Source: an uncultured virus (IMG/VR IMGVR_UViG_3300024999_000010) (Duplodnaviria; Heunggongvirae; Uroviricota; Caudoviricetes). Taken from it: DNA of 20,000 nucleotides. The translations under genes and the position numbers were made by a program. Within the stretch, counting starts at the first letter, position 1; each line of letters opens with the position of its first letter. Below are positions 201 through 18,261 of this stretch, piece after piece. Where the stretch lies: IMG/VR virus record IMGVR_UViG_3300024999_000010; one strand, written 5' to 3'. The notes under the pieces were generated by a model. The model saw nothing but the letters and a program-made list of their open reading frames with translations, was not told where the DNA came from and ran no database searches.

Positions 201-746
201 GTGAAGAAATTAATAATTGTTTTATTTATATCATTATTTTATTATTCAATTGGGATAGCTGCTGGCCCCCCTGGTTCACCCCCGCAATCTGCGGTCACCA
301 TTGACGACTCCCCCAGCGATGGCAACACGACCGAGGCGGCAAGCTCCAACTCGGTGTATGACCATACGGTTAGCACAACGGCACACGGTCTGAATGCAAC
401 GGTCAACGTTACCGGGACTTCTTCATTATCTGATGCCAACGTGATTGGGACCGTAGTTTCAAATTACGGAATGGGTTCAGGCGGAGATACTACTTTACCG
501 GCTTACAGTGGGAATATCAAGTTTACCATACTGGTCGAGGCGGCAACTCAGGCGTGGAGTTTAAAACCTCCATCTGGCGAGATATTTGTATTAGATGGAG
601 CCGCGCTTGACGCTAATGATGAAATTGATATAGGCCAAACAGTAGGAAATAGTGCCGTGTTGATAAGATTAAGAACCGGGGCAAGTTCGTATCAATGGTA
701 TTTTTACAGCGTTCAGGGATCGCATACAGACGGAGGTGCAAGTTGA
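201..746 (+). CDS. Hypothetical protein with Sec-type signal peptide and S/T/G-rich beta-strand body (possible virion/surface protein)
   Basis: MKKLIIVLFISLFYYSIGIA signal-like N-terminus, AGGAGG RBS, 181 aa ORF. Confidence 0.75.
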   Translation: MKKLIIVLFISLFYYSIGIAAGPPGSPPQSAVTIDDSPSDGNTTEAASSNSVYDHTVSTTAHGLNATVNVTGTSSLSDANVIGTVVSNYGMGSGGDTTLPAYSGNIKFTILVEAATQAWSLKPPSGEIFVLDGAALDANDEIDIGQTVGNSAVLIRLRTGASSYQWYFYSVQGSHTDGGAS

Positions 747-5893: not shown

Positions 5894-6096
5894 ATCCCCT
5901 CCTTAAAGTGCAGAGACAACCCACATGCCACTGCAGCGCTCTTTTCCATCCTTGACAACACACTCTGCCAGCACCCTTGCCGGAATGTTTCTTATTTCTG
6001 AAATCTTAGAAGAATCCCCTTCCCAAAAAATATGGTCGCCTAGTATCTCGTTTTTCACTTCAACTCTTATGGTGCTCATATTCCCTCCTTAAAGTG
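5890..6096. repeat. 21-bp direct repeat carrying the RBS and start codon (5890-5910 and 6076-6096, 1 mismatch)
   Basis: Minus-strand CACTTTAAGGAGGG(G/A)ATATGA at both positions. Confidence 0.85.
5903..6079 (-). CDS. 58-aa hypothetical protein
   Basis: MSTIRVEVKNEILGDHIFWEG...SGMWVVSAL* with AAGGAGG RBS; below the ORF-track cutoff. Confidence 0.75.
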   Translation of the reverse strand: MSTIRVEVKNEILGDHIFWEGDSSKISEIRNIPARVLAECVVKDGKERCSGMWVVSAL

Positions 6097-6186
6097 TACG
6101 GCGGGCAGGATTTGAACCTGCACTGGCTGTCGGGCCTTTCGGCATTCCGATCCAGAATATCAGCAATACCATTATGCCACCGCCGT
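6097..6186 (-). ncRNA. tRNA-like RNA 1 (90 nt) lacking a canonical anticodon arm
   Basis: Acceptor ACGGCGG/CCGCCGT+A, D-arm GCA-TAATGGTAT-TGC, T-arm GCAGG-TTCAAAT-CCTGC. The centre is an interrupted hairpin capped by GAAA. No encoded CCA. Confidence 0.8.
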
Positions 6187-6192
6187 ACTTGT

Positions 6193-6834
6193 TTACAAAC
6201 ATTTTACTTTTGTTTCTCTATTTTTTATTGTAAATTCGAATATCTTATCCGCAACCGCTTCAATATCTTCTCTCGATGCTCGTTCATCTGCAATCATTAT
6301 AATTTGTAATCCCGGCCAATTTTGTTCTGGTCTTGGTTTGCAAATCTCTTTTAACATCGCCAAGGCTCTGATATTTGTTTCTTGCCCTTTCAAATGTTTA
6401 AATGGTTCATCCAAAAATATAATTGGCCTATTCCTTGGCTTTTTTAAACTCCATAATGCTGCCCTTAATGCCGTTCCGGCAATATCTACAGAACCAAGGC
6501 CGGTTGATTTTTTAGGATTCAATCTTTGCCCATCCCGGATAAACCAAAAATCTGCTTCGGTTTTCCCCCTTCTCAATTCAATAGCAACTTCAAAATCATA
6601 AGGATCATCAAAAACCCCTTGTAATGCGAGTTTAGGAAGTTCTGATAATTGATATTTTAATTCTTCCTGAGTTTGTTGGGCAACCGTTTGAATAAGGATT
6701 TTGGCCCGTTCCGCTGATCGGTGTTCCCTTCTGAGTTTTTGAGATTCCAAACGGGTAGAATCAATTTGATTTTGGATTTGATCTCGTTTGCCCTTTCTCT
6801 GGTCAATTGCCGATCTGAATTGTTGGATATTCAT
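6193..6834 (-). CDS. SbcC/Rad50/gp46-like ATPase, C-terminal half
   Basis: Short coiled coil, degenerate signature STGLG, Walker B/D-loop IIFLDEPFKHL, QIIMI, ADKIF; no Walker A. Confidence 0.8.
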   Translation of the reverse strand: MNIQQFRSAIDQRKGKRDQIQNQIDSTRLESQKLRREHRSAERAKILIQTVAQQTQEELKYQLSELPKLALQGVFDDPYDFEVAIELRRGKTEADFWFIRDGQRLNPKKSTGLGSVDIAGTALRAALWSLKKPRNRPIIFLDEPFKHLKGQETNIRALAMLKEICKPRPEQNWPGLQIIMIADERASREDIEAVADKIFEFTIKNRETKVKCL

Positions 6835-12382: not shown

Positions 12383-12595
12383 TTATGGCTCGTGACGTTC
12401 CCAGGCAGTAGAAACAAGACTTGTAATATCACAAGCAACCGTTTCAGCTTCAGACAATGTCATGTTTGGCGGTAAACGAGTCCATAAAAACGAATTTAAT
12501 TCTGGCTTAATATTATCAAGAACCTCAATCCTTTCCTTTTCATATGAATCTCTTGTTATCGCCTCTTTATCTACAGCCTGTATATTATACATCAT
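12383..12595 (-). CDS. Hypothetical protein
   Basis: AGGAG RBS; ATGA overlap with the RecA stop. Confidence 0.65.
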   Translation of the reverse strand: MMYNIQAVDKEAITRDSYEKERIEVLDNIKPELNSFLWTRLPPNMTLSEAETVACDITSLVSTAWERHEP

Positions 12596-13641
12596 ATTCT
12601 CCTTTTTGGCATTCTATCCTGAATGAATTGAGCTTGTATTTCTTCCCACAATTCAATTACTACTTCTTTCAATTCCTCTTCCATCCCATTTTCTTCCACA
12701 TAAGAAATTGCCCCATCAAGGCTATTTGACAATATTTCTTCCCCATCAATGGAATATTTTTTATGTTGTGAATTCTGCTTCAGGAAAACAAGATTGGCCC
12801 GTATATCATCAATCCCATAATTATCCATAATATAAATGTCGGCGGATCGGTACCCCTTTCCAACTGAGGATTTGACAACATCTATATGGGATAATATGCC
12901 AATTGATTCTTTGTGTTCTTTCCCATATAAACTTCTTTCAGCTTTGATTACTTGCTTTTTGACAATCTCTAATCTCAAAGAAGCATAAAATTTCGGAGCA
13001 TGTCCGCCTGTTGCCCTCGTCTTTTTAGCAAATGGCATAGTGGCCATGGTATCCCTGATTTGATTTGAAAATACCATAAGCCAGCCCCTTTGTTTCAGCA
13101 TTCTACATGTACGCCTGAATCCCTGACTGAAATCATTTGCCCTCTTTGCCCCATCATAGCCCTTGGCATCCTTCATTTCTTCTTCAGTACAAAGAGCGGC
13201 AATTGAGTCCGCAATTATGGCATGAGGCGGATCACCTGCAGGCTTCCAGGAGTCAAATAAATTAAATACTTCCGCAATTGTATCTGGTTCTTTTATTGTT
13301 TTATCAGTAATGGAAAAATCAAAAAGGGCAGCAAATTCTTTATTCAATCTTGCTTCAGGATCATTGAATATTACATCTCCGCCTTTTCGTTGAATAGCCC
13401 CAGCAATCTCACACATGAGGACGGTTTTACCTGCTGAGGAATCCCCGAATATTTCAACAGCTATCCCGGTTGGAATCCCACCTCCATGGATAATTTCCCC
13501 AGATATGGCAAGATCAAGAAGGGTTGAACCAGTGGAAATAGTATTGTTAAAATCCCCGTCATAAGTTATTTCTGATTTTTGATGCTTCTGAGAAAGTGCG
13601 GTCTTGACCCTTTCAACTGTTTTGCTTTTTGTTCTTTCCAT
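12592..13641 (-). CDS. recA: RecA/UvsX-like recombinase
   Basis: ISTGSTLLD, GGGIPTG, Walker A GDSSAGKT, DPE, IIADSIAAL, SNQIRD, TGGHAPKFYASLRL. Confidence 0.92.
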   Translation of the reverse strand: MERTKSKTVERVKTALSQKHQKSEITYDGDFNNTISTGSTLLDLAISGEIIHGGGIPTGIAVEIFGDSSAGKTVLMCEIAGAIQRKGGDVIFNDPEARLNKEFAALFDFSITDKTIKEPDTIAEVFNLFDSWKPAGDPPHAIIADSIAALCTEEEMKDAKGYDGAKRANDFSQGFRRTCRMLKQRGWLMVFSNQIRDTMATMPFAKKTRATGGHAPKFYASLRLEIVKKQVIKAERSLYGKEHKESIGILSHIDVVKSSVGKGYRSADIYIMDNYGIDDIRANLVFLKQNSQHKKYSIDGEEILSNSLDGAISYVEENGMEEELKEVVIELWEEIQAQFIQDRMPKRRI

Positions 13642-13653
13642 TATTAATAACCG

Positions 13654-13899
13654 TCAATAAATTGCAAAAGTAAAAACACATATATCATTAGGTAATCCAA
13701 ATGTTCCAGGCTGAGTAATATTATAAATAACCGCCCTTATTTCTCTTCCGGTATATTCTTCTAATTTCGGATTATATTCTTGTAATATTATATAATCGCC
13801 TTGTTGATAATTTCTGTCATTTCTTCGTACTTTATGTCTTTTATCTCCATCCAATACTGATTGAAATTCTTTTGGCCAACTTTTTATTTTATGAAGCAT
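13654..13899 (-). CDS. ASCH/DUF3850-family (PUA-like) protein
   Basis: HKIKSWPKEFQSVLDGDKRHKVRRNDRNYQQGD. Confidence 0.8.
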   Translation of the reverse strand: MLHKIKSWPKEFQSVLDGDKRHKVRRNDRNYQQGDYIILQEYNPKLEEYTGREIRAVIYNITQPGTFGLPNDICVFTFAIY

Positions 13900-13918
13900 G
13901 TTTCACCATTAAATTAAT

Positions 13919-14035
13919 TGGGATAGGCAGGGCTCGAACCTGCACGCCGTCTACGCAACTGCAGCTTTGGAGGCCAAATCTCATCCTATTTATAGGATCG
14001 TCCGGCTGTGCGTCTACCAATTCCGCCACTATCCC
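13919..14035 (-). ncRNA. tRNA-like RNA 2 (117 nt), tRNA-Leu-like ends with an expanded multibranch centre
   Basis: Acceptor GGGATAG/CTATCCC+A, D region TGGCGGAATTGGTAGACGC, T-arm GCAGG-TTCGAGC-CCTGC. No 5-bp/7-nt anticodon arm; no encoded CCA. Confidence 0.82.
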
Positions 14036-14045
14036 AAACTTTAAA

Positions 14046-15254
14046 TTACAATTTTTCCTGAGCTTCCATGCAGGAATCCCAAACCTTACAAACATCGCAT
14101 TGCTTATGTTTATCGCAATCTACAGCAAACACAAATCCATGAGGACAATCGCCTTTCGGTTTTGTCGTTTTCTTATTCCTGGTTTGGGTTGGTTCCGGTT
14201 CTGGATCTTTCTCTTTTTCGTCCCCATCTTCCGGCAGGGCATCAAATGCTTCTTCGCAATCATCCTTAATTTCGCACTTCCGGCAAATTTTCTTGGAATT
14301 AAAATCAACTGCAAATGTCAGGTCATGAGGACATTCAGGCTCATTATCTTCTTCCTCTTCCCCAACATTAAGCGGCACATCATCACCAGTTCCTTCATCT
14401 TCTTCCGGCTCAGGTTCAGGTTTCGCTGTTTTCCGCTGTCGTGTCTGTTTTGCCGGTTTCTCTTCCGGTTCTTCTTCGGCTTCTTCCCCGGAGTCCACTT
14501 CCAGGAAAATATTGTTCAATTCATCATAGGACTTAATAACCAATACATCATCAAGATTAATTACCTCATCCAGAATAGATTCATCAATATCATCCCTTTC
14601 AACAAAGGAAATACTGTCGGCATTTGAATAATCATTTCCTGCAAACTGCTCTTTCTGAAAACGTACCCGCAAATCATAGCCGCCAACCAAATCCATAAAG
14701 GTTGCATATTGATCATTATCTGGGTCAAGCAATTCCTTCTTCAGCCGTTTCTCAAAACAGGCATATGAAAACCACCAGAACATAATCGGTCCAGGTTCGC
14801 CTTTCTCGATTACCTGGACATTATACATCACGCAATCCTGAGCCTTGAATTTATTCGCTTCGGTATCAGGAATAGAAGGATCGGCTTTTGCCTTGATGTA
14901 ATATTCATTGATCGGGCAAGCCTTCCCAATGGAAAGAGGGCTGATATATGATTTCTTGTCAACCCCAACCTGCCGCACCCGTTTGAAAGGACGTTTATAC
15001 CATAATTCACCTTCAGGGGCAATATTCTGTCCGTCCGGGTGTTTGGGGTCGGAAACGATATATGGCAACAGTCGCAGGGTATATTTTACCTCAGTCTTGC
15101 CCTTGGGAATATCGACATTAAAAAATTCTGTTCCATCCCCGAGATTTTTAAACATCGTCCCGCTACCACCTTGCGGGCCAGCAACAGCTGCCCCTGCCTT
15201 GGCCCTGTCTGCCGCTGATCCGTATTTTCTGGTTGATTTACTTCTTGTTGCCAT
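14046..15254 (-). CDS. gp32-like single-stranded DNA-binding protein with acidic tail and two Cys-rich repeats
   Basis: LRLLPY, CPINEY, YNVQVI, DLVGGYDLRV pattern; very acidic C-terminal part; located between recA and a UvsY-like gene. Confidence 0.72.
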   Translation of the reverse strand: MATRSKSTRKYGSAADRAKAGAAVAGPQGGSGTMFKNLGDGTEFFNVDIPKGKTEVKYTLRLLPYIVSDPKHPDGQNIAPEGELWYKRPFKRVRQVGVDKKSYISPLSIGKACPINEYYIKAKADPSIPDTEANKFKAQDCVMYNVQVIEKGEPGPIMFWWFSYACFEKRLKKELLDPDNDQYATFMDLVGGYDLRVRFQKEQFAGNDYSNADSISFVERDDIDESILDEVINLDDVLVIKSYDELNNIFLEVDSGEEAEEEPEEKPAKQTRQRKTAKPEPEPEEDEGTGDDVPLNVGEEEEDNEPECPHDLTFAVDFNSKKICRKCEIKDDCEEAFDALPEDGDEKEKDPEPEPTQTRNKKTTKPKGDCPHGFVFAVDCDKHKQCDVCKVWDSCMEAQEKL

Positions 15255-16413: not shown

Positions 16414-18261
16414 TTATTCTTGAGCATGAGCTGCCTTAAAACAGGCCAATGTCAATCCTGGTTTCCCGGTATTATAAAATGGCTCTGAAAATTCATCCAT
16501 CACAATAAATGCCTGAAAATCTTCTTTCTTCAACAGGATTGTATTGCAATATGATAAAATCATCCTTCTCAATTTTTCCTCATCTTCATTTATTAATCCA
16601 CTCAATATTGAAGAAATCTTTTTCCAGGGAGATTTCTGGATTAATGCCCTTGCAAGATCAATTGCTGCATTCTGTTTTGCCGCTTCCTCAAAAATAACTT
16701 CAGCCATTTCTTCAGGATTCAAGCCGGCCACCCTTTCCAATAATTTGAGGGCATTCCGGGGATGGCCAAATGATTGTTCATAAATCAATTCCCTAGCTTC
16801 ATTTGGCAATGTTATCTTTTCCGCCCTGCAAACCTTTCTGAGCAATACACTCATTTCCCCTTCGTTTAAAGGAGACATCACAAAATGGGTACATCTGCCC
16901 TGTATGGTCGGCAAGAGCTTCTGAGGGTCGGTAGTACAGAGGATAAAATAAACGTGCCCAGGGGCGTCCTCCAGAGCTTTTAATAAGGCATTCTGACCAT
17001 CCTTGCTGATAGAGTGGCATTCATCCAGTAGCCATACCCGGCAAGAGCTTTTTGGGTCTTGCGGCTTGAGTCGGACCTGCTTTCTGATTTCTCGTATTGT
17101 ATCAATTCCCCGGAAATCAGCAGTATCAATTTCCCGAAAATCTGCTTCTTTTGCTCCAAGGACATTTGCAATAATCCGGCCTACGGTTGTTTTTCCGCAA
17201 TTTCCTGTGGCAAAAATATTTCCTTCTCTTCTTAAAATTAAATAAGAACTTGGTACTTCAAAACAATATTCATAACCATCTTTTGTTTTATAATTGTTAA
17301 TTTTTACTTTATTTAATCCTTGTATACTTGTAAATTTTTTATTTGTTGCACAAACATCATAATAAATTTTATTTTTTGTTCTTGTATCCTTATAAACAGA
17401 ACTTCTTAACCCACAGGATGCTAATGCATATTGAATAAAATCTTTTGTTTCTTTTATAGATGTACAAAATTTTAATTTTCCATATTCTCCATCCCAATAA
17501 AAAATTTCATCAACAATAATTTTTAATTGTTCTAATGAACAACTATAATATTTTGAATCAAAAATTTTATCTTTATATGGTGGTATAAAATAAAATCTTA
17601 TATATCCATTTCCCATTATATATTTGTCAAATTGTATTTTTGCATTTTTTAACAAATATTCGGCCCTTTTTATTTTTCTTTCCTTTTTTAGATTGATACA
17701 GATTTTTTTTCTATTTTCAGTAAAACTGCCATCAGCAATACACATAACCTGAATTCTTAATTCATCTATTGTTATTGGCAATTTTGTATTAATTATTGGA
17801 GTAAACGTAGTTATAAATTTACCAGAAAATCCGTATTTTGTATTTAAATGTTGATTATGTATTTCCTTAAATGTTTTAACATAATGTTTTTTTTGTTTTT
17901 CTAAATAATATAAAACTCTATGATCTGCACTTAAACATTGATTTATTCCGTATTTTGTTTTTATATGAAATAAATTTTCAGATTTTCTTTTTATAAATTT
18001 GTTTGGTTTAACAAATTCCGCAGTTCCATCTAAATTATATTGCATTACTAAATCATCATTCCATTCAGCAATTCTTTTCCATCCGAATGGTGATAAAAAT
18101 TCAGTATCACAATCCACGCAACCTGTCGGGCCGGTCAAAAGAATAGCATGAGGAAATTTATCTGCTCGATTATCAAATAATGATTTTATCCCCTTGATTG
18201 TTCCTTGGTTGCCAATTACTTCATCAAATGTTCGAGGGCGATGATCTATTGCAAGGCTCAT
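16414..18261 (-). CDS. dnaX: DnaX-like (Pol III gamma/tau) clamp-loader ATPase, intein-containing; 308 aa after splicing
   Basis: HRPRTFDEVIGN, PHAILLTGPTG/CGKTT, GIDTIRE, LLDECH, NALLKALED, FILCTT, TIQGRC. Confidence 0.88.
   Translation of the reverse strand: MSLAIDHRPRTFDEVIGNQGTIKGIKSLFDNRADKFPHAILLTGPTGCVDCDTEFLSPFGWKRIAEWNDDLVMQYNLDGTAEFVKPNKFIKRKSENLFHIKTKYGINQCLSADHRVLYYLEKQKKHYVKTFKEIHNQHLNTKYGFSGKFITTFTPIINTKLPITIDELRIQVMCIADGSFTENRKKICINLKKERKIKRAEYLLKNAKIQFDKYIMGNGYIRFYFIPPYKDKIFDSKYYSCSLEQLKIIVDEIFYWDGEYGKLKFCTSIKETKDFIQYALASCGLRSSVYKDTRTKNKIYYDVCATNKKFTSIQGLNKVKINNYKTKDGYEYCFEVPSSYLILRREGNIFATGNCGKTTVGRIIANVLGAKEADFREIDTADFRGIDTIREIRKQVRLKPQDPKSSCRVWLLDECHSISKDGQNALLKALEDAPGHVYFILCTTDPQKLLPTIQGRCTHFVMSPLNEGEMSVLLRKVCRAEKITLPNEARELIYEQSFGHPRNALKLLERVAGLNPEEMAEVIFEEAAKQNAAIDLARALIQKSPWKKISSILSGLINEDEEKLRRMILSYCNTILLKKEDFQAFIVMDEFSEPFYNTGKPGLTLACFKAAHAQE
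17200..18120 (-). mobile_element. Intein (307 aa) with LAGLIDADG homing endonuclease, inserted in Walker A
   Basis: Starts CVDCDTEFLSPFGWKRI, block B SADHRV, MCIADG and FYWDG motifs, ends YCFEVP...ATGN followed by +1 Cys. Much more AT-rich than the exteins. Confidence 0.92.

What the first reader, a model, noticed from the sequence alone, without database searches (positions are those of the whole stretch)
13919..14035. tRNA-like RNA 2: Leu-type scaffold with a multibranch insert instead of anticodon and variable arms
Seen: Leu-like D region (GGCGGAAUUGGUAGACGC), A discriminator, perfect acceptor and T stems. The roughly 65-nt centre is closed by GCCG/CGGC and ACG/CGU and holds hairpins AUCCUAU/AUAGGAU and UUUGG/CCAAA, too short for a group I intron. 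Known: bacterial LeuRS relies largely on A73 and elbow shape rather than the anticodon. Inference: it could be processed and even leucylated while unable to decode. It lies directly upstream of an ASCH/PUA-like gene, a putative RNA-binding family.
Basis: partly seen in the sequence, partly recalled or inferred. Interest (0 to 1): 0.72.

Follow-up and report, generated by a model that had tools for sequence, protein, structure and literature searches.

The report
Anticodon-less leucine-tRNA-shaped phage RNA gene
A groundwater phage carries a small RNA gene that keeps the upper body of a leucine tRNA but has a 66-base folded insert where the anticodon arm should be; it belongs to a large, uncatalogued phage RNA family of unknown job, and a sister strain has the same frame with a different insert.

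Summary
On the minus strand (14035->13919) lies a 117-nt RNA gene with a perfect 7-bp acceptor stem, A73, a Leu-type D arm, a perfect T arm and a 66-nt centre with no anticodon arm. Rfam's tRNA model scores 37.1 bits through the frame alone. It is not an intron-bearing tRNA: ARAGORN's "Trp(cca)+32-nt intron" call also arises in 345 of 500 shuffled-centre controls, there is no BHB motif, and the insert is too short for a group I intron. This scan found the class before on other DNA. New here: a sister strain carries the same acceptor and T arm at the same locus with a different centre (158 nt) and no ASCH gene, and other relatives lack both. The ASCH link is therefore not supported. Most likely it is a non-decoding RNA cut out of the replication operon by tRNA-processing enzymes, with the frame as chassis and the centre as exchangeable cargo. 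Processing, charging and function are untested.

The parts
13919..14035 (-). 117-nt tRNA-Leu-framed RNA gene (whole)
   Evidence: Rfam RF00005 37.1 bits; sequence read
14029..14035 (-). acceptor stem 5' strand GGGAUAG (RNA 1-7); U8 G9 follow at 14028-14027
   Evidence: pairs 7 of 7 with 13920-13926
14010..14026 (-). Leu-type D arm GCGGAAUUGGUAGACGC (RNA 10-26) with G18G19
   Evidence: the commonest D arm of the family (42 of 95 distinct members; the pattern used fixed its 3' part)
13944..14009 (-). 66-nt centre (RNA 27-92): no anticodon arm; hairpins AUCCUA/UAGGAU and UUUGG/CCAAA; ends in U48
   Evidence: constrained folds; replaced by other sequence in sister allele L131; no diverged relative found
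13927..13943 (-). T arm GCAGG-UUCGAGC-CCUGC (RNA 93-109)
   Evidence: 5 of 5 pairs, GGUUCGA T loop; 100% identical in L131
13919..13926 (-). acceptor 3' strand CUAUCCC and discriminator A73; no encoded CCA (AUU follows)
13900..13918 (-). 19-nt spacer with GGUGA ribosome-binding site for the next gene; its first 14 nt are identical in L131
13654..13899 (-). 81-aa DUF3850/ASCH gene: neighbour only, absent from the sister allele
   Evidence: Pfam PF12961 E 3e-21; phrog_986; L131 and the joint
14046..15254 (-). upstream 402-aa gene (weak match to phage ssDNA-binding protein); its stop codon lies 10 nt before the RNA 5' end
   Evidence: phrog_224 E 2.5e-4
12592..13641 (-). UvsX/RecA-like recombinase, the next gene of the same operon
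   Evidence: PF00154 E 4e-34, phrog_97 E 1.4e-43

Best explanation
It is a non-decoding small RNA gene built on the upper body of a class II leucine tRNA, and a member of a widespread phage family that includes phage T5 RNA1. It has no room for a promoter or terminator of its own: it starts 10 nt after the stop codon of the upstream gene and ends 19 nt before the next start codon. It is therefore most likely transcribed as part of the replication/recombination operon. Host RNase P would cut it out at the 5' end, and tRNA 3'-processing and CCA-adding enzymes would finish the 3' end. These enzymes recognise the intact acceptor/T-arm stack and the D/T elbow (inferred). The tRNA frame would serve as a processing and stability chassis, and possibly as a LeuRS handle. 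The 66-nt centre would be a strain-specific, exchangeable folded cargo domain that carries the actual activity, probably binding a host or phage factor (inferred). Shown: frame integrity, absence of an anticodon arm, family membership, replacement of the centre between strains. Inferred: excision, stability, cargo function.
For: Frame: perfect acceptor and T stems, U8, G18G19, U48, A73; RF00005 37.1 bits. No decoding arm: ARAGORN without introns does not call it. With introns it calls Trp(cca)+32 nt, but it also calls a tRNA in 345 of 500 controls in which only the centre was dinucleotide-shuffled. Of 119 matches, 102 have at least 6 of 7 acceptor pairs and at least 4 of 5 T-stem pairs. ARAGORN of the 118 matches an ordinary tRNA. 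Among 95 distinct members, positions the pattern did not fix are conserved: U8G9 in 91, U48 in 89, A73 in 76, while centres are unalignable. As a population the centres fold better than their shuffles (90 distinct centres, mean z -0.91, 76 of 90 below 0, Wilcoxon p 1e-11). T5 RNA1, annotated 'tRNA-like stable RNA with unknown functions' (144 nt), has the same D-arm motif, a T arm and a centre of about 90 nt. This is a precedent for accumulation of the unspliced RNA. Exchangeable centre: L131 has the same RNA positions 1-19 (one change), and a 40-nt stretch covering the T arm, the acceptor 3' strand and the spacer is 100% identical. In between lies unrelated sequence (158-nt RNA), while the flanking genes are 93% and 87% identical. 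The joint 13944->14017 is seen in two runs. No promoter-like or terminator-like site lies between the flanking genes on the minus strand.
Against: There is no RNA evidence for this phage: no listed holder run is RNA, so expression, ends, CCA and charging are all unknown. The centre of this member is not significantly more stable than shuffles (z -0.87). It has several near-isoenergetic folds and no diverged relatives, so no covariation test of any structure was possible. No target or partner of the centre was found: within the 20-kb window only one 10-nt complementary match, about what chance gives by my own estimate, not a shuffle control. A function that needs only the frame (rivals 2 and 3) would explain the conservation pattern equally well.
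Confidence: 0.55

Rival explanations
1. Frame-as-decoy: the active part is the tRNA-Leu upper body itself. The RNA would soak up or mislead a host factor that recognises class II tRNA shape, for example a tRNA-cleaving defence nuclease or LeuRS. The centre would only have to lack a cleavable or decodable arm and would drift or be swapped freely.
For: U8, U48, A73, the Leu D arm and the T loop are strongly conserved while the centre is not. The locus is an accessory hot spot with three alleles in one population: RNA-A+ASCH, RNA-B, and a 49-aa membrane ORF. That pattern is typical of conflict genes (inference). Passages read in PMC13096335 report that Septu and retron-Eco7 cleave the variable loop of class II tRNA-Tyr and that phage tRNA-Tyr supply overcomes this, so tRNA-shaped counter-measures exist.
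Against: Centres are long (49-79 nt in the set, 66 here). As a population they are more structured than shuffles, which a mere filler need not be. No defence system that targets tRNA-Leu was identified here. The analogy is to tRNA-Tyr.
Confidence: 0.2
2. mRNA punctuation: the tRNA-like fold exists only to make RNase P and RNase Z cut the polycistronic transcript between the upstream gene and the ASCH/UvsX genes, setting different mRNA stabilities. The excised RNA would be a by-product.
For: It is tightly embedded between genes (10 nt and 19 nt spacers) with no promoter- or terminator-like sites. The 14-nt 3' spacer is conserved 100% in L131. 93 of 118 family loci have no ordinary tRNA within 300 nt (25 do), so most are not in tRNA clusters.
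Against: An acceptor/T-arm minihelix would suffice for RNase P (established knowledge, recalled). Yet the D arm, U8 and U48 are conserved and a large centre is always kept. Close relatives do without any such element at this position (L005/L006).
Confidence: 0.1
3. Intron-bearing tRNA: a 32-nt insert between positions 32 and 33 is removed to give a class II tRNA with anticodon CCA (or another splice gives a Leu anticodon), which then decodes.
For: ARAGORN -i proposes exactly this. The insert's 3' end can pair with the would-be anticodon (UUUGG/CCAAA).
Against: The same program makes an intron call in 345 of 500 shuffled-centre controls, and in 66 of 119 family members with scattered anticodons. 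No BHB motif is present (0 found; 20% of shuffles have one). No group I intron or other Rfam hit appears at E up to 10. The sister allele L131 gets no call even with introns allowed. A Leu-identity body with a Trp anticodon would miscode. T5 RNA1 is annotated as a stable 144-nt RNA.
Confidence: 0.05
4. Decaying tRNA-Leu gene or recombination scar with no function.
For: Present or absent among close relatives. The centre is unique. Individual fold statistics are unremarkable.
Against: All frame helices are perfect. No variant positions were listed inside 13919-14035 in four runs, whereas flanking genes show many (36 rows were not shown). The same frame is kept around a different centre in L131. 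The family-wide conservation of U8, U48 and A73 argues for selection.
Confidence: 0.1

Closest known systems
Phage T5 RNA1 (AY543070 30501-30644, annotated 'tRNA-like stable RNA with unknown functions')
   Same: Leu-type D arm motif (CCGGAAUUGGUAGACGG), U8G9, U before the T stem, a GGUUCAA T arm, an acceptor-like stem, and a centre of about 90 nt without an anticodon arm. It is phage-encoded and its function is unknown. Rfam sees it only as a weak tRNA hit (24 bits).
   Different: It lies in the T5 tRNA cluster next to tRNA-His and two other stable RNAs. Its acceptor pairs 6 of 7, its discriminator is not A, and its centre sequence is unrelated. The window RNA sits alone inside a replication/recombination operon.
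Phage T4 species 1 and species 2 stable RNAs (rnaC, rnaD)
   Same: Small stable phage RNAs of unknown function. rnaC ends in a tRNA-type T arm (CCGGG-UUCGAAU-CCCGG) and an acceptor-like 3' strand.
   Different: Neither has a Leu-type D arm motif (one search found none in the T4 stretch). They are analogues rather than members.
Canonical bacterial class II tRNA-Leu
   Same: Acceptor stem, A73, U8, D arm, U48 and T arm. That the D-arm sequence matches bacterial tRNA-Leu is recalled, not tested.
   Different: No 5-bp anticodon stem with a 7-nt loop, and no recognisable variable-arm hairpin. 66 nt occupy the place of about 31.
Engineered 'tRNA scaffold' for expressing recombinant RNAs in E. coli (Ponchon and Dardel; recalled, not read here)
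   Same: The design principle: the anticodon arm is replaced by a cargo RNA, and the tRNA body gives processing and stability.
   Different: That is a laboratory construct. Here the arrangement is natural, widespread and on a Leu frame. Whether it works the same way is inferred.
tRNA-like domains of tmRNA and of bacterial Y RNAs (YrlA) (recalled)
   Same: Non-decoding RNAs that keep an acceptor/T-arm (and D-like) tRNA module recognised by tRNA enzymes.
   Different: Different topology and partners. No tmRNA or Y RNA model matches the window RNA.

Membership tests
Canonical tRNA (Rfam RF00005) / tRNA-Leu | 7-bp acceptor stem with discriminator, D arm with G18G19, T arm with GUUCRA loop | tested here: met
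   Read from the sequence; RF00005 37.1 bits against gathering 29
Canonical tRNA (Rfam RF00005) / tRNA-Leu | Anticodon arm: 5-bp stem and 7-nt loop with U33 directly after position 26 | tested here: not met
   ARAGORN without introns finds nothing here. The Rfam alignment skips 43 nt. A loop appears only after removing 32 nt, which shuffled centres also allow in 345 of 500 cases
Canonical tRNA (Rfam RF00005) / tRNA-Leu | Class II variable-arm hairpin | tested here: inconclusive
   Only a weak GCGU/GCGU pairing with G-U pairs is possible; it does not appear in the best constrained folds
Phage Leu-framed scaffold RNAs (unnamed; T5 RNA1 type) | U8G9 + Leu-type D arm + U48 + T arm + intact acceptor stem around an enlarged centre without an anticodon arm | tested here: met
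   All are present in the window RNA. The same set in the family: 102 of 119 intact frames; among 95 distinct members U8G9 91, U48 89, A73 76
Phage Leu-framed scaffold RNAs (unnamed; T5 RNA1 type) | Encoded by a phage | tested here: met
   The window is a phage replication/lysis module: clamp loader with intein, UvsX, FEN, SbcCD, endolysin. Identical copies lie on IMG/VR contigs
Phage Leu-framed scaffold RNAs (unnamed; T5 RNA1 type) | Accumulates as a stable, unspliced small RNA | not testable with these tools
   No RNA run holds this DNA. Known only for T5 RNA1, through its GenBank annotation
tRNA gene with group I intron | Self-splicing intron of about 200 nt or more with a P1-P9 core in the anticodon loop | tested here: not met
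   The insert is 32 nt (ARAGORN model) or 66 nt (whole centre). No intron family among Rfam matches at E up to 10
tRNA gene with archaeal/eukaryal endonuclease intron | Bulge-helix-bulge motif (3-nt bulges around a 4-bp helix) at the splice sites | tested here: not met
   0 BHB-like arrangements in the centre; 20% of shuffled centres have at least one
   L131 has the RNA frame but no ASCH gene. 0 of 118 family loci have a homologue within about 300 nt (phmmer E up to 0.01). The reverse test was impossible because only the two identical contigs came back

The most novel reading that the evidence does not exclude
The Leu-tRNA frame is a universal phage 'chassis' for displaying fast-evolving RNA cargo. 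The conserved frame ends would act both as processing signals and as short homology arms, letting phages swap centres as cassettes, as seen here between two co-existing strains at two separate loci. The centres would be aptamer-like inhibitors or decoys aimed at host defence or host translation factors, which would make this a large, unrecognised class of RNA-based counter-defence genes.
Probability: 0.2. Interest if true: 0.85.

Novelty: new member of a known kind. Interest (0 to 1): 0.6.

Why it matters
Phage T5 RNA1 is annotated in its GenBank record as a 'tRNA-like stable RNA with unknown functions'; my recollection that such RNAs were first seen decades ago comes from no call. This window shows that the same design is not a T5 oddity. 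A Leu-tRNA upper body carrying an unrelated folded insert recurs in at least 118 viral contigs, and no dedicated Rfam family covers it. I found no description of it in six literature searches. The window adds a population-level observation: the frame stays and the centre is replaced between co-existing strains, at two loci of one phage. That points to modular, rapidly exchanged function, the signature of host-phage conflict genes. Members in T5 and SPP1 make the question directly testable in laboratory strains.

Tried and rejected
Expression: the look-up of sequencing runs listed no RNA holder, so nothing can be said on expression, ends or splicing. Read laying used DNA contigs only.

Relatives of the centre:
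- An exact 20-mer across the D-arm/centre junction returned only the two identical IMG/VR contigs.
- A degenerate two-hairpin pattern returned the same two contigs.
- blastn of the 801-nt region against 50,697 phage records found nothing.
- No covariation test was therefore possible.

Nearest record: G001 does not cover this region.

ASCH tie: the search for related loci with the 81-aa protein gave only the same two contigs.

Antisense target: no complementary match of 11 nt or more anywhere in the 20-kb window.

Intron models: rejected; see rival 4.

The 68-aa ORF 13889-14095 (-) and the 251-aa antisense ORF 13872-14627 (+) that overlap the RNA were taken as spurious. They were not tested further.

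Strand of flanking open frames in family loci: a crude count gave 48 same-strand against 37 opposite upstream, and 62 against 22 downstream. This is too crude to use.

Allelic swapping elsewhere in the family: the group with the GGTATCG acceptor has three different centres, but the flanks are not homologous beyond about 24 nt upstream and 10 nt downstream. These are different loci, not alleles.

Literature: six searches found no paper describing the family. Passages read in PMC4810235 mention only T5 tRNAs. In PMC6316719 the word 'tRNA' occurs 0 times in the main text. Subscription-journal papers on T5 stable RNAs are not in the library.

Only 37 pass the frame test, and several of those are tandem ordinary tRNAs or long-variable-arm tRNAs. 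This was not analysed further.

Full report
WHAT IS THERE

The finding lies on the minus strand. Read from 14035 down to 13919, the RNA is 117 nt. In RNA numbering its parts are:
- 1-7 GGGAUAG, pairing 7 of 7 with 110-116 CUAUCCC;
- U8 G9;
- D arm 10-26, GCGGAAUUGGUAGACGC;
- a 66-nt centre, 27-92;
- T arm 93-109, GCAGG-UUCGAGC-CCUGC (5 of 5 pairs);
- discriminator A117; no CCA is encoded.

Rfam's tRNA model scores it 37.1 bits (gathering 29) when the region is searched alone, aligning only the frame and skipping 43 nt. The default whole-window scan and standard ARAGORN both miss it.

An alternative long arm (GCCGGA/UUUGGC around the AUCCUA hairpin) is within 0.4 kcal/mol. Neither the whole RNA (z -1.62) nor the centre (z -0.87; 90 of 500 shuffles fold as well) stands out statistically.

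CONTEXT

The window is part of a phage genome with 38.6% G+C. It encodes:
- a clamp loader with a LAGLIDADG intein;
- a UvsX/RecA-like recombinase;
- a FEN-type exonuclease;
- SbcCD-like proteins;
- a Holliday-junction resolvase;
- a Hydrolase_2 endolysin.

The holder runs are groundwater and soil metagenomes, all DNA.

The RNA gene begins 10 nt after the stop codon of a 402-aa gene (weak match to a phage ssDNA-binding protein). It ends 19 nt before the start of an 81-aa DUF3850/ASCH gene, which is followed by the UvsX-like gene; all are on the minus strand. No promoter-like or terminator-like site lies in these spacers. The RNA must therefore be made as part of the operon transcript and cut out of it.

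NOT AN INTRON-BEARING tRNA

ARAGORN with introns allowed proposes a class II tRNA with anticodon CCA after removal of 32 nt between positions 32 and 33. Five results argue against it.
- When only the centre is dinucleotide-shuffled and the frame is kept, the same program still calls a tRNA in 345 of 500 cases. The call carries no information.
- The centre holds no bulge-helix-bulge arrangement, whereas 20% of shuffles have one.
- No intron or other Rfam family matches at E up to 10.
- A Leu-identity body with a Trp anticodon would miscode.
- The sister allele described below gets no tRNA call even with introns allowed.

A LARGE FAMILY

- Of 119 matches, 102 have at least 6 of 7 acceptor pairs and at least 4 of 5 T-stem pairs. 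94 are perfect.
- ARAGORN of the 118 matches an ordinary tRNA. 25 of the 118 have an ordinary tRNA within 300 nt.
- With introns allowed it of 119, with anticodons scattered over the code. This is no better than the shuffled control.
- Among 95 distinct members, positions the pattern did not fix are conserved: U8G9 in 91, U at the position before the T stem (U48) in 89, and discriminator A in 76. The 49-79-nt centres cannot be aligned.
- As a population the centres fold better than their own shuffles (90 distinct centres, mean z -0.91, 76 below zero, p about 1e-11).
- In a sample of 20 loci the only Rfam family that hits these RNAs is the generic tRNA model, so there is no dedicated family.
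Only 37 pass the frame test, and several of these are ordinary tandem or long-armed tRNAs.

This scan has met the class before on other DNA (e1-5954164, e1-4035489, e1-5354315). I tested three of the leads in those notes.
- Phage T5 RNA1 is annotated in AY543070 as 'tRNA-like stable RNA with unknown functions', 144 nt. It does have the Leu-type D arm motif, U8G9, U48, a T arm and a centre of about 90 nt, so it is a member.
- T4 rnaC and rnaD are only analogues. rnaC has a T arm and an acceptor-like end, but neither has the D arm motif.
- SPP1 carries a member at about 6648-6768. The 2018 re-annotation paper does not use the word tRNA in its main text (PMC6316719, passages searched).

WHAT THIS WINDOW ADDS

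The locus is polymorphic in the source population.
- Two IMG/VR contigs and two of the four metagenome contigs found carry the window's allele unchanged; a third covers only its 3' end.
- Relatives with 91-96% identical flanking proteins have neither the RNA nor the ASCH gene. A 49-aa membrane ORF takes their place (joint 13654->14034).
- A third allele, L131, keeps RNA positions 1-19 with one change. A 40-nt stretch covering the T arm, the acceptor 3' strand and 14 nt of spacer is 100% identical. Between them lies unrelated sequence, giving a 158-nt RNA, and the ASCH gene is absent. The flanking genes are 93% and 87% identical. The corresponding joints (13944->14017 and 13649->13905) are seen in contigs of two runs.

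So the frame is retained and the centre is replaced between co-existing strains, and the ASCH gene is not an obligatory companion. In line with this, none of the 118 family loci has a homologue of this protein within about 300 nt.

The second tRNA-like gene of the window (6096-6186) behaves the same way. Its T arm, acceptor 3' strand and spacer recur with two different bodies on other contigs, neither of them callable as a tRNA.

HOW IT MOST LIKELY WORKS

Shown: an intact tRNA upper body and core, no decoding arm, family membership, embedding in an operon, and an exchangeable centre.

Inferred from established knowledge of tRNA processing (recalled): RNase P and the 3' processing and CCA-adding enzymes recognise the acceptor/T-arm stack and the elbow. 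They should therefore release and stabilise the RNA. The T5 RNA1 annotation shows that such an RNA can accumulate unspliced.

I therefore favour a chassis-plus-cargo reading, with the centre as the active, strain-specific part (confidence 0.55). Two frame-only rivals remain open: a decoy for a factor that recognises class II tRNA shape (0.2), and pure mRNA punctuation (0.1). Passages in PMC13096335 show that defence nucleases do target the variable loop of a class II tRNA (Tyr) and that phage tRNA supply counters them. This makes a conflict role plausible, but only by analogy.

Leucylation is possible on paper, since A73, U8, A15/U48 and the D loop are present, but it is untested. An intron-bearing tRNA (0.05) and a dead gene (0.1) are unlikely.

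LIMITS
- No RNA data exist for this phage.
- The centre has no diverged relatives, so no structure could be tested by covariation.
- Older T5 literature is outside the searchable library.

VERDICT

Noticed in passing
window 6096-6186 (-): A second odd tRNA-like gene. It is 91 nt and is called tRNA-Arg(tct) by ARAGORN and RF00005 (42.9 bits), but it has a weak non-Leu D arm and a 25-nt variable region. Its T arm (GCAGG-UUCAAAU-CCUGC) resembles that of the finding. The same T arm, acceptor 3' strand and downstream spacer occur on two other viral contigs (L140, L142) around quite different bodies that ARAGORN does not call as tRNA. So this locus also shows 'frame kept, body swapped'.
   Followed up: partly
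window 16414-18261 (-): The clamp-loader (DNA pol III delta'-like AAA+) gene carries a LAGLIDADG_3 match and a large N-terminal extension matching a PhoH-like PHROG. This suggests an intein or homing-endonuclease insertion.
   Followed up: no
L005 3798-3947 (and L006): In relatives with 91-96% identical neighbours, a 49-aa predicted membrane ORF occupies the place of the RNA and the ASCH gene. The slot between the ssDNA-binding-like gene and uvsX is therefore an accessory-gene hot spot with at least three alleles.
   Followed up: partly
L138 (SPP1, X97918) about 6648-6768 (+): Model phage SPP1 carries a family member (acceptor AACACGG/CCGUGUU, D arm GCGGAAUAGGUAGACGC, 57-nt centre, T loop UGCAAAU). 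It overlaps the doubtful 'gene 10' of the old annotation and is unannotated as RNA.
   Followed up: partly
L033, L025, L037 and their copies: Members with the acceptor GGUAUCG share about 24 nt upstream (a CCCG-GAAAGA-CGGG hairpin) and CAAACUAAAA downstream. They sit in otherwise unrelated flanks and have three different centres, as if a small module including its immediate flanks were mobile or multi-copy.
   Followed up: partly
L024, L025, L068/L082/L018 centres: By eye, several family centres can form H-type pseudoknots (for example AGGUUA/UAACCU interleaved with GAUAAC/GUUAUC in the L068 group, which is conserved across three diverged copies). Not tested formally.
   Followed up: no
L134 (T5) 485-701 (-): T5 RNAI and RNAIII, two further 'stable RNAs with unknown functions', lie directly downstream of RNA1. 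They showed no tRNA-model hit at E up to 1.
   Followed up: no
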